DNA from: Escherichia coli
Lineage (GTDB): Bacteria > Pseudomonadota > Gammaproteobacteria > Enterobacterales > Enterobacteriaceae
NCBI RefSeq assembly: GCF_003334305.1
Contig: NZ_QOWS01000001.1
Direction: 5' to 3' (one strand)
DNA: 64,000 nucleotides
Made by a program: the position numbers. Of the stretch, positions 21,601 to 24,600 are shown piece after piece. Numbering within the stretch: the stretch's first letter is position 1; each line of letters begins with the position of its first letter.

Positions 21601-24600
21601 ACAGCGAAGCGATTCGGGTAGTGCTGGCGATTATCGCCTTTGCCTCTATCATCTTCGGTAACCTGATGGCGCTGAGCCAGACCAATATCAAACGTCTGCT
21701 CGGTTACTCATCTATCTCTCACCTCGGCTATCTGCTGGTGGCGCTGATTGCGCTGCAAACGGGCGAGATGTCGATGGAAGCGGTAGGAGTTTACCTGGCC
21801 GGTTATCTGTTCAGCAGCCTCGGCGCGTTCGGCGTGGTCAGCCTGATGTCCAGCCCGTACCGTGGCCCGGATGCTGATTCCCTGTTCTCTTACCGCGGTC
21901 TGTTCTGGCATCGCCCGATCCTCGCGGCGGTGATGACGGTGATGATGCTGTCTCTGGCCGGTATTCCGATGACGCTGGGCTTTATTGGTAAGTTCTACGT
22001 GCTGGCGGTCGGTGTCCAGGCACACTTGTGGTGGCTGGTGGGCGCCGTGGTTGTCGGTTCGGCAATCGGCCTTTACTACTACCTGCGCGTGGCGGTGAGC
22101 CTGTACCTGCACGCCCCGGAACAACCGGGTCGCGATGCACCGTCAAACTGGCAGTACAGCGCAGGCGGTATCGTGGTGCTGATCTCTGCACTGTTGGTAC
22201 TGGTGCTGGGTGTATGGCCACAACCGCTGATTAGCATTGTGCGGTTAGCAATGCCGCTGATGTAAGCTATCAGTTTGTAAGTCAGAAAGCCGCCGACATG
22301 TTCGGCGGTTTTTTTTGGTGCCCTGACACCATCACCCAACAATAACCGTCAGCGCATGATTCCCTTGTCGCAGCATACGTCGATACGCGCTAATCAGCTT
22401 TTCCATATCAAGCATGATCGAAGCAAAGAGTTGCCCCTCTAACTCTTCTGAAAAGGTCACTCCCGGATAAATCTCCATTTCATTGAGTCGCTTAATGGAA
22501 AACTGTTTACGCAGCTCACTTCGATCCAGTGATTCCAGTCGGTCGATTGTCGCGGCTAACTCCTGATTCCAGGTCAATCCCAGGAAGCCATCTATGCCAT
22601 CTTCGAGGCTGTGTTCACCAAGCACGGCACGACTCAGCGGATCATTCTTCGCGGGATCAAAAGCAGAGGTGCCTGTCAGCCCAAAGTGTAAAAAATCCCA
22701 GCGTTTATCAATATCCAGTCGGCGTAATCCTGAAAGCGTGTCATGTATATTATCCATCAAAGGTTTTTCAGTAGACTCAAGCAGTTGGTTAATCTTTTCT
22801 GAGTCAATTTCTGCAAAATAACCAATCATTCCCATTTATTTTTCCTCCATTGAATTTTATGTTTCGCATCTTAAAACAGACGAGGGAAAATAAAATGTAC
22901 ATGTCGCTGTTTCTGGACCCGCCTCGAGAAATTTTTATTATTTACTGTTGTGTAACAAGGTTATAACACCATCTGAGCCATTTTCTGATAATTCAATCTG
23001 TCTGCTGTATCACCGGGCAAGTGGTATTGTTTATTACGATAAAAAGCGGTGTCAGTAATCATTACGGCGGGAATATCGTGTTGCCAATAATTCAGGTGGT
23101 CAGAGAAATCAATACCGGGAATAAACCATGGGGCATTCATAGAATAAACAGATAAATCCCGGGATGATAACAATGCCGTTTTTACCTGACGAACGGCGTT
23201 GATATCCTGTATTCTGCCGACCAGGCAATAAAGTCCCCCCGATCGGGATAAAGCCAGGACATTGCGGGTAAGGGTAATCCTGGCTACCAGGCGCAGAGTC
23301 GTAATAGCCAATCGGGGACGCCCTGCGCGGTAACTCTGGCACCGCTACTGACAAAGAACTCTTTTATATACTCTACGGACCTATTCAGATTATCAATATT
23401 GTCGGCATTACGTGGATGCACAGTTTGTGTAAGATAACGAACTGTTTTTTCTAATTGCTCAGGACTGACGTGTCGGGGCGTTGGCGATAATGCAGTGACC
23501 CAGGGTTGGTAAAAATAATCAGAGGGAGTGAAATCAGAAATAATATAACAAAAGGATTTTTTTTCATATATAAATTATCAATAAAAGACGTTATTTTATC
23601 ATTATTTATAATGAGTTATGAGTGTTTGTTTTATTACGGTTGTTAGATCTATACAAAAAGTATCTTTTACAGTGGCTTCGCTATTTTAAAAAGGAATTCA
23701 TATAAGGAAAAATATAATTATGTTATTTATTGGCAGATTGAGTTGACAGGGGGCAGAACTCTGAGGGTAAGAAAAGTCAGCAACAACAATCCACTACATC
23801 AACAGACCAGCAATCGCGTGCCGAGATACGCTGGAAATACCCGAAGATTGAACTGGCGGATGGTGTGACTGACATCAGTCAGTGATGACTTTTTAGCAAA
23901 CTATGTTCGACCAGTCAGCATATTTGCTGACTGGTCGAATTAATTAACTATGATGTTAACTTACTCTTTTGCCTGATGCTCTATTTTGGGGTTGTGAGTG
24001 TTTTATTTCTAAGTCTCTATAATAATCATTGATATTTGCATCGCCATATTTATCTAAATAACAATTTCTGTTTACCTGTCGATGTTGAAAATCAATTTCG
24101 TACTGCTCTTCTGCTGAATATTTTTTAAATCTGTCAGCATAGTTTTTTAATAACGTATAGGGGGCGCTGTCAGAATTGCTTTCCCTTTGTTCAATCACTT
24201 CCTGGGCTGCCATGCACACAAACGCACCGCAACTTTGGCTTAAGTATTGCTGAAGATCGGCATGTAAAAATATTATCTCTGGTTCATTTAAATGAACTTT
24301 TATATTATTATTCGACATTTCTCCCATGAGTTCAGAATTAAAACTATTAATGACACGCGTAAGTGAATTTTCTTTATCATGGCCTAGTGCACGCAATGAG
24401 TTGAATATGACGCATTTTATTTGTAGTTTATTATTTTTTTTATTTACTATTTTCTGTAGCGAAACTAATATCCAGTGTCCGCCAGTATTTATGGGGAATA
24501 ACTGGACTTCATTCGGTCATGATGGATCGCTCTTAATATTTTCATTGAGAGCGTCTTCCAGGTGAGTTCTGGTGGAGTAGGGGACGTAGAGACCAGTAGG

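What the first reader, a model, noticed from the sequence alone, without database searches (positions are those of the whole stretch)
23906..23939. Perfect 15-bp inverted repeat just downstream of elaD
TTCGACCAGTCAGCA-tatt-TGCTGACTGGTCGAA is a perfect 15-bp palindrome with a 4-nt loop. There is no strong U-tract on either side, so it is not a canonical intrinsic terminator. It could be an RNA stability hairpin, a protein-binding operator or a recombination scar at the edge of the deleted region.
Basis: seen in the sequence. Interest (0 to 1): 0.35.

Follow-up and report, generated by a model that had tools for sequence, protein, structure and literature searches.

The report
Hairpin shared by two converging genes
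The perfect 15-bp palindrome is real and is most likely an ordinary RNA hairpin that caps the ends of the converging elaD and yfbK transcripts in E. coli; in this strain both genes are dead, so it is probably a leftover.

Summary
The palindrome TTCGACCAGTCAGCA-tatt-TGCTGACTGGTCGAA is exactly at 23906-23939. It is far beyond chance (about 5e-4 expected per window) and is the longest perfect hairpin in the window. The window is an E. coli chromosome. In K-12 the same sequence sits in the 70-nt gap between convergent elaD and yfbK. It occurs at one locus per genome in about 4200 of 5426 complete E. coli genomes, and not in phages, true plasmids or Rfam.

It is not a deletion scar. The yfbK deletion junction lies 60-83 nt away, and genomes with intact yfbK have the identical palindrome. 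It is not an LldR/FadR-type operator. It lacks a usable U-tract in the elaD direction (terminator score -30) and is borderline in the yfbK direction (+2).

Published K-12 data show Rho-dependent termination of elaD-sense transcription in this region. One strongly divergent allele (WL297) keeps 13 contiguous pairs only on the elaD-sense RNA, through two compensatory pairs and three G·U wobbles (P about 0.002).

Best reading: a protective 3' stem-loop of Rho-terminated transcripts, a known class. In this strain elaD has a premature stop and yfbK is a remnant, so the hairpin is likely a relic. Low interest.

The parts
23906..23939 (.). Perfect palindrome: left arm 23906-23920, loop 23921-23924 (tatt), right arm 23925-23939. 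It forms a 15-bp hairpin in RNA made from either strand.
   Evidence: Identical in K-12 at NC_000913.3 2383941-2383974.
23886..23955 (.). 70-nt intergenic region between the yfbK stop (23883-23885, + strand) and the elaD stop (23956-23958, - strand). The hairpin starts 20 nt after the yfbK stop and 16 nt after the elaD stop.
   Evidence: Annotation of an identical genome, K-12 annotation, alignment.
23956..25176 (-). elaD pseudogene. It carries a premature stop (Trp to stop, 'SDPS*PNEV'), so the C-terminal half including the conserved GGHW and CGAF stretches is not made.
   Evidence: PGAP note 'internal stop'; translation compared with K-12 ElaD.
23846..23885 (+). Last 13 codons plus stop of yfbK, the only 3' part of the gene left. 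About 1.56 kb of yfbK is missing to its left, with the junction between 23823 and 23846.
   Evidence: blastn of the window against K-12; alignments. A single junction type is shared by about 60% of sampled loci.
23706..23905 (-). Sequence downstream of the hairpin for an elaD-sense transcript. It is C-over-G rich (C/G 1.39 over 200 nt), a possible Rho loading region. This is inferred, not shown.
   Evidence: C/G is 1.29-1.49 in the window and 1.30-1.82 in K-12, against a window background with median 1.0 and 90th percentile 1.35.
23868..23883 (+). Small second hairpin ACTGAC-atca-GTCAGT ending inside the yfbK stop codon (23883-23885), followed by GATGAC and TTTTT. It shares the CAGTCAG/CTGACTG motif with the large palindrome. 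Possibly a weak terminator for yfbK; its role is not established.
   Evidence: Terminator-like site; sequence.

Best explanation
The palindrome encodes a stable stem-loop in the 3' untranslated ends of two convergent transcripts, elaD (- strand here) and yfbK (+ strand here). RNA polymerase is not stopped efficiently by the hairpin itself, because no U-tract follows it. Transcripts run on into the antisense, untranslated strand of the opposite gene, where Rho terminates them. 3'-to-5' exonucleases (PNPase, RNase II) then trim back to the base of the hairpin, which blocks them and sets a stable 3' end. This is the class of structure Dar and Sorek (2018, PMC6061677) found at nearly all Rho-dependent 3' ends in E. 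coli. Selection appears to act mainly on the elaD-sense RNA. The hairpin belongs to the segment that carries elaD and is present or absent with it. In this particular strain elaD has a premature stop and yfbK is a short remnant, so the hairpin is most likely a still-intact relic with little or no current function. Shown: the anatomy, the single-copy distribution, the absence of a U-tract, and the preservation of pairing in a divergent allele. Taken from the literature: Rho-dependence in K-12. Inferred: exonuclease trimming and protection at this site.
For: Position: the hairpin lies 16 and 20 nt beyond the two convergent stop codons, and the arrangement is identical in K-12. Stability: -26 to -27 kcal/mol for the 34-mer, z about -8 to -9 for the intergenic region. 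No U-tract: d-score is -30.3 for elaD-sense and +2.2 (borderline) for yfbK-sense, and the terminator scan did not flag it. Rho: Adams et al. 2021 (PMC7815308, Supplementary file 2) list a Rho termination region on the elaD-sense strand with its best coordinate at K-12 2383800, 141 nt upstream of the hairpin. Reads upstream/downstream were 165/21 untreated and 264/122 with bicyclomycin, giving a Rho score of 3.63 and p = 5.8e-8. C-over-G richness downstream in the elaD-sense direction is at or above the window's 90th percentile. Structure conservation: in WL297 a 140-nt patch is about 30% diverged and the stem has 9 substitutions, yet the elaD-sense RNA keeps 13 contiguous pairs through two double compensatory changes and three G·U wobbles. 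Simulation gives P(run >=13) = 0.0015 and P(dG <= -20.5) = 0.002, taking the better strand in each simulation. Because G·U pairs rescue only one strand, this favours an RNA element over DNA symmetry. Distribution: one locus per genome in 4200-4202 of 5426 genomes, with the 34-mer exact in 3718 of 4201 records. It is absent exactly where elaD is absent. The class itself is described in PMC6061677.
Against: No mapped RNA 3' end at the hairpin was found. Adams et al. list no curated Term-seq 3' end between K-12 2383900 and 2384099 in three conditions, and the other datasets were empty or not held. Both genes are poorly expressed in the laboratory, so this absence is weak evidence. The Rho score uses 800-nt windows, so it does not place termination relative to the hairpin. 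Within E. coli the stem is not more conserved than its flanks by count of polymorphic sites (8 of 30 stem positions against 8 of 36 flank positions). All within-species stem variants are one-sided and split about evenly between the two strands, as expected under near-neutrality. The covariation evidence rests on a single independent divergent allele. The two adjacent compensated pairs could also arise by a template-switch mutation between the arms and not by selection. The C/G enrichment is mild and is absent in the yfbK direction.
Confidence: 0.55

Rival explanations
1. It is a weak, non-canonical or bidirectional intrinsic terminator, or the stem-loop that positions head-on collisions of converging RNA polymerases between elaD and yfbK. 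In that case the hairpin itself takes part in stopping transcription.
For: It sits between convergent genes in K-12. The hairpin is very strong. The yfbK-sense d-score is just positive (+2.2), with UU directly after the stem. Wang et al. (bioRxiv 10.1101/2022.10.23.513370) report that a nascent-RNA stem-loop is needed for convergent polymerases to collide at defined positions between gene boundaries. Dar and Sorek note possible mixed intrinsic/Rho cases.
Against: There is no U-tract in the elaD direction (d = -30.3), and no A-tract/U-tract pair flanks the stem as in described bidirectional terminators. With bicyclomycin the downstream/upstream read ratio for elaD-sense rises to 0.46, and there is sizeable antisense coverage across elaD that Rho ends only near 2382764. 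Both suggest that polymerases pass the hairpin in each direction. No 3' end is mapped at the site.
Confidence: 0.2
2. It is a functionless palindrome. It was produced or perfected by a mutational process (template switching between quasi-palindromic arms) in an AT-rich, horizontally acquired, decaying region, and it persists only because too little time has passed.
For: Within E. coli the stem has as many polymorphic sites as the flanks, and no compensatory pairs were seen apart from WL297. The hairpin stays perfect in many genomes where yfbK is a remnant and/or elaD is broken: among 80 sampled loci with the reference allele, yfbK is short in 48 and elaD is broken in 23. The region is 33-37% G+C against 53-58% in the flanking nuo genes.
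Against: A perfect 15-bp hairpin is not expected by chance. In the one deep comparison, pairing is kept despite 30% sequence change, and only on one RNA strand through G·U wobbles, which DNA-level template switching does not predict. Its placement 16-20 nt after two stop codons is what functional 3' hairpins show.
Confidence: 0.17
3. It is an operator for a dimeric DNA-binding protein.
For: Perfect two-fold symmetry. The arms contain GACCA/TGGTC, which resemble half-sites of FadR/LldR-type boxes. A genomic SELEX study reports LldR binding 'in yfbK'.
Against: The reported LldR boxes are at L002 6983-6999 and 7198-7214, 1.0-1.25 kb from the palindrome. The half-sites here are everted and 18 bp apart, and no TGGTCnGACCA match exists at the site. 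There is no promoter to regulate between two convergent stop codons; the one promoter-like match there is within shuffle expectation. The WL297 allele breaks DNA symmetry (10 of 15 Watson-Crick pairs) while keeping RNA pairing.
Confidence: 0.04
4. It is a recombination scar, or the end or target site of a mobile element or dispersed repeat family.
For: It lies in a variable region with several deletions. It travels with the elaD segment that is missing in B2-type strains.
Against: It is identical in genomes without the yfbK deletion. The junctions lie 45-83 nt away, not at the palindrome. There is one locus per genome. There are no phage matches, and only six Escherichia records in the plasmid set, four of them 1.4-4.9 Mb long and read here as probably mislabelled chromosomes, which was not checked. 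No Rfam family matches. No transposase or integrase gene is annotated between nuoL and menD.
Confidence: 0.02

Closest known systems
[quoted passage not shown] 2012)
   Same: A stable stem-loop shortly after the stop codon with no U-rich tail, mild C-over-G richness downstream (elaD-sense), and bicyclomycin-sensitive read-through in the region.
   Different: No steady-state 3' end has been mapped at this hairpin, and exonuclease dependence is untested. The 15-bp perfect stem looked long to me compared with typical terminator stems, but that impression was not checked here. One palindrome would serve both convergent transcripts.
Canonical intrinsic (Rho-independent) terminator
   Same: A strong hairpin just downstream of a coding region.
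   Different: It lacks the 7-8 nt U-tract. The elaD-sense score is clearly negative and the yfbK-sense score is only borderline. Termination in the region is Rho-sensitive.
Bidirectional terminators and programmed polymerase collisions at convergent gene pairs (Ju et al. 2019; Wang et al. 2022, bioRxiv 10.1101/2022.10.23.513370)
   Same: A single symmetric stem-loop between convergent genes that can form in both transcripts.
   Different: The stem is not flanked by an A-tract and a U-tract. There are no data on overlapping 3' ends. In this window both convergent genes are inactivated.
REP (repetitive extragenic palindromic) elements
   Same: An extragenic palindrome that could act as an exonuclease barrier at an mRNA 3' end.
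   Different: It is single-copy, with one locus per genome, and no other copy was found in the window or elsewhere in E. coli genomes. It is not a member of that family.

Membership tests
Protective 3' stem-loop of Rho-dependent transcripts | Energetically stable stem-loop at the transcript 3' end, close to the stop codon | tested here: met
   -26 to -27 kcal/mol; 16 and 20 nt from the two stop codons.
Protective 3' stem-loop of Rho-dependent transcripts | Not followed by a uridine-rich tract | tested here: met
   T-score 0.64 (elaD-sense) and 2.29 (yfbK-sense); not flagged by the terminator scan.
Protective 3' stem-loop of Rho-dependent transcripts | Read-through increases when Rho is inhibited | tested here: inconclusive
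   Published K-12 data give a Rho score of 3.63 at 2383800 on the elaD-sense strand. The 800-nt windows do not resolve the position relative to the hairpin, and there are no data for this strain.
Protective 3' stem-loop of Rho-dependent transcripts | C-over-G rich (rut-like) sequence downstream of the stem-loop | tested here: inconclusive
   C/G is 1.3-1.8 in the elaD-sense direction, at or above the 90th percentile of the window, but only about 1.0-1.2 in the yfbK-sense direction.
Protective 3' stem-loop of Rho-dependent transcripts | Precise steady-state RNA 3' end immediately downstream of the stem, extended in pnp/rnb mutants | not testable with these tools
   No 3' end is listed for K-12 2383900-2384099 in Adams et al. 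Other supplements were not held or had no entry.
Canonical intrinsic terminator | U-tract of about 7-8 nt directly after a GC-rich stem | tested here: not met
   The tails are CAUAGUUUGCU (elaD-sense) and UUAAUUAACUA (yfbK-sense); d-scores are -30.3 and +2.2.
Bidirectional terminator of convergent genes | Stem-loop flanked by an A-tract upstream and a U-tract downstream, so that both strands read hairpin plus U-tract | tested here: not met
   The flanks are ...UUUUUAGCAAACUAUG / UUAAUUAACUAUG on the + strand. There is no A-tract/U-tract symmetry.
REP or other dispersed repeat family | Many copies per genome | tested here: not met
   One locus per genome; the two 'places' are the two strands of the same palindrome. 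No other copy in the window with up to 3 mismatches beyond chance.
FadR/LldR-type (GntR family) operator | TGGTCnGACCA core, as in the LldR box AAnTGGTCnGACCAnTT | tested here: not met
   No match at the site. The reported LldR boxes are 1.0-1.25 kb away.
Rfam RNA families | Match to a curated covariance model at its gathering score | tested here: not met
   The best matches are far below gathering scores (29 against 90 bits and similar) and belong to irrelevant families.

The most novel reading that the evidence does not exclude
The hairpin could be a selected, strand-specific cis-element of the elaD mRNA that does more than block exonucleases. For example, it could be a binding site for a 3'-end RNA chaperone, or the 3' end of a UTR-derived small RNA, controlling expression of the ElaD deubiquitinase. 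It would have been acquired together with elaD and maintained by compensatory change even across a recombined patch. A second speculative reading is that the palindrome is a fragile site that favours the nearby rearrangements; two independent endpoints lie 45-83 nt from it.
Probability: 0.06. Interest if true: 0.4.

Novelty: new member of a known kind. Interest (0 to 1): 0.12.

Why it matters
It matters little beyond annotation. It gives a probable 3' boundary for the elaD and yfbK transcripts in E. coli. It also shows that a strong hairpin without a U-tract next to a deletion need not be a scar or an operator. Finally, it illustrates that such 3' structures can stay perfect after both genes they served have been inactivated.

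Tried and rejected
(1) Dispersed repeat: rejected by searches of the window, 5426 E. coli genomes, plasmids and phages.
(2) Deletion scar: rejected by comparison with K-12 and by blastn mapping of the junctions.
(3) LldR/FadR operator lead from the only paper that mentions both genes: the boxes are more than 1 kb away and the motif is absent.
(4) Orthologues in other species for covariation: the ElaD peptide scan and a flank DNA pattern found nothing among 100,044 species representatives. I suspected that the E. coli representative lacks elaD, but did not verify this.
(5) The homologous-protein search returned only near-identical E. coli ElaD and gave no divergent loci.
(6) Published 3' end maps: five papers were checked. 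Only Adams et al. had relevant entries, and none was at the hairpin.
(7) Strand-of-selection test from within-species variants and flanking-gene status: too few and phylogenetically dependent, so inconclusive.
(8) Rfam: nothing.

Full report
Observation. The palindrome is exactly as described: arms at 23906-23920 and 23925-23939, 15 nt, 100% complementary, loop tatt. It is the longest perfect hairpin in the 64-kb window; the next best have 11-bp arms. About 5e-4 such palindromes are expected by chance per window. As RNA from either strand the 34-mer folds at about -27 kcal/mol. The 70-nt intergenic region folds with z-scores of -7.7 and -9.0 against shuffles.

Context. The window is an E. coli chromosome, 100% identical over 3 kb to many sequenced strains. 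In window coordinates the genes are: nuoN 20808-22265 (+); yfbM 22332-22835 (-); a frameshifted remnant of yfbL 22938-23567 (-); an elaD pseudogene 23956-25176 (-); and rbn 25364-26281 (-). In K-12, elaD and yfbK converge and their stop codons are 70 nt apart. The identical palindrome lies in that gap at NC_000913.3 2383941-2383974. Compared with K-12, the window lacks yfbN-yfbO-yfbP, has a 326-bp deletion in yfbL, and has lost about 1.56 kb of yfbK. From 23846 rightwards it is collinear with K-12 at 98.5% identity. Only the last 13 codons of yfbK remain next to the hairpin. elaD carries a Trp-to-stop change upstream of the conserved GGHW and CGAF stretches. Both genes that flank the hairpin are therefore dead in this strain.

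Not a scar, not a repeat, not an operator. Genomes with intact yfbK and intact elaD carry the identical palindrome. The deletion junction lies 60-83 nt to its left and is of one ancestral type, shared by about 60% of sampled loci. The palindrome is present at a single locus in 4200-4202 of 5426 complete E. coli genomes. The two 'places' per genome are the two strands of the same palindrome. There is no phage match. The only matches in the plasmid collection are six Escherichia records, four of them 1.4-4.9 Mb long, which I read as probably mislabelled chromosomes without checking. No Rfam family matches. The one paper that mentions both genes reports LldR binding 'in yfbK' by genomic SELEX. 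Its two candidate boxes are 1.0-1.25 kb away, in DNA that this window has lost, and the palindrome lacks the TGGTCnGACCA core.

The hairpin belongs to the elaD segment. B2-type strains such as APEC O18 have yfbK-yfbL-yfbM and rbn but neither elaD nor the palindrome. Their homology with K-12 stops at ...ACTGGCG, about 24 nt before the K-12 yfbK stop (window ~23861), so yfbK has a different last eight codons there. Other strains have a larger deletion that removes the 3' part of elaD, the palindrome and yfbK. The segment is AT-rich, 33-37% G+C against 53-58% in the neighbouring nuo genes.

Terminator test. The RNA tails after the stem are CAUAGUUUGCUAAAA (elaD-sense) and UUAAUUAACUAUGAU (yfbK-sense). 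A d'Aubenton-Carafa-type score is -30.3 for elaD-sense, which is clearly not a terminator, and +2.2 for yfbK-sense, which is borderline. The consensus scan did not flag the palindrome. The stem is not flanked by the A-tract/U-tract pair of described bidirectional terminators.

Transcript evidence from the literature. Adams et al. 2021 (PMC7815308) list no curated Term-seq 3' end between K-12 2383900 and 2384099 in three growth conditions. They do list a Rho termination region on the elaD-sense strand with best coordinate 2383800. Reads in the 800-nt windows upstream/downstream were 165/21 untreated and 264/122 with bicyclomycin, giving a Rho score of 3.63 and p = 5.8e-8. A second region on the opposite strand at 2382764, antisense to the start of elaD, has reads of 274/21 and 503/139. 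So elaD-sense transcription ends in this neighbourhood in a partly Rho-dependent way. Transcription also crosses elaD in antisense, which suggests that polymerases coming from the yfbK side are not all stopped at the hairpin. The resolution is too low to place these events relative to the stem. Four other datasets gave nothing. [quoted passage not shown] These stem-loops protect against PNPase and RNase II and are followed by C-over-G rich sequence. Here C/G downstream in the elaD-sense direction is 1.3-1.8, at or above the window's 90th percentile, but about 1.0-1.2 in the yfbK-sense direction.

Comparative evidence. A flank pattern outside the palindrome retrieved 95 metagenome loci. With the genome alleles this gave 103 sequences usable for the 140-nt allele table (36 distinct alleles) and 105 usable for the 34-nt hairpin. 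Eighty of the 105 have the reference hairpin. The variants are all one-sided. Polymorphic sites number 8 of 30 stem positions, 0 of 4 loop positions and 8 of 36 flank positions. Transitions that leave a G·U wobble are split about evenly between the two strands. Within the species there is thus no clear sign of constraint, although the exact 34-mer is kept in 3718 of 4201 records. The hairpin is perfect in many genomes in which yfbK is a remnant (48 of 80) or elaD is broken (23 of 80).

The one deep comparison is the allele of strains WL297 and 2013C-4282. A patch of about 140 nt (equivalent to window 23901-24040) is about 30% diverged and has a 15-nt deletion. It is flanked by almost identical sequence, and the rest of elaD is about 96.6% identical to other alleles. 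This looks like a short recombination tract from a distant, unidentified donor. The stem has 9 substitutions, as many as the rest of the patch would predict. Even so, the elaD-sense RNA keeps 13 contiguous pairs through two double compensatory changes (A-U to G-C and C-G to A-U) and three G·U wobbles, folding at -20.5 kcal/mol. The yfbK-sense strand keeps only 10 pairs with interruptions (-14.7 kcal/mol). Placing 9 substitutions of the same kinds at random, and taking the better strand each time, gives P = 0.0015 for a run of 13 and P = 0.002 for the energy. This favours an RNA structure read in the elaD direction over DNA symmetry. It is a single independent case, and the two adjacent compensated pairs could be one template-switch event.

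Conclusion. The most likely reading (about 0.55) is an ordinary protective 3' stem-loop of Rho-terminated transcripts, shared by convergent elaD and yfbK and selected mainly for elaD. In this strain it survives as a relic next to two inactivated genes. A weak or collision-assisted terminator role (about 0.2) and a functionless palindrome (about 0.17) remain open. Operator and scar/mobile-element readings are unlikely. This is a new example of a known kind of element and deserves a low interest score.

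Noticed in passing
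window 22313-25176: The whole rbn-nuoN interval is a decaying AT-rich island. yfbN-yfbO-yfbP are absent (junction 22313-22331). yfbL has a 326-bp deletion at 23313/23314 and is annotated as frameshifted. yfbK is reduced to a remnant of about 140 nt (23743-23885). elaD has a Trp-to-stop change.
   Followed up: partly
L003 2515-2640 (E. coli WL297; equivalent to window 23901-24040): A patch of about 140 nt with about 30% divergence and a 15-nt deletion that moves the elaD stop (389 aa instead of 403). It is flanked by nearly identical sequence and is also present in strain 2013C-4282. It looks like a short recombination tract from an unknown distant donor.
   Followed up: partly
L106 3740-3910 (APEC O18) against window ~23861: B2-type strains lack elaD and the palindrome. 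Homology ends inside yfbK, so yfbK has alternative last eight codons, and the yfbK-rbn gap holds a different, imperfect hairpin (GTTTGCC...GGCAAAC). Which state is ancestral was not determined.
   Followed up: partly
window 23868-23883 (+): A small hairpin ACTGAC-atca-GTCAGT ends inside the yfbK stop codon and is followed by a T5 run. It shares the CAGTCAG/CTGACTG motif with the large palindrome, so alternative pairings between the two are conceivable.
   Followed up: no
window 23927-23954 (+): A promoter-like site, CTGACT (in the right arm), 16 nt, TATGAT, reading antisense into elaD. The T at 23949 that improves the -10 hexamer occurs in only about 10 of the 103 sampled sequences; the rest have A. 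The number of such sites in the region is within shuffle expectation.
   Followed up: no
K-12 NC_000913.3 2382764 (- strand), equivalent to the 5' end of elaD in the window: Published data show substantial transcription antisense to elaD that is ended by Rho near the elaD start (reads 274/21 untreated, 503/139 with bicyclomycin). Its origin, yfbK read-through or an internal promoter, is unknown.
   Followed up: no
window 6655-6686, 5922-5948, 53905-53930: Other perfect hairpin palindromes with 10-11 bp arms, for example AGCCGCTGGGG...CCCCAGCGGCT. They are probably ordinary terminators.
   Followed up: no
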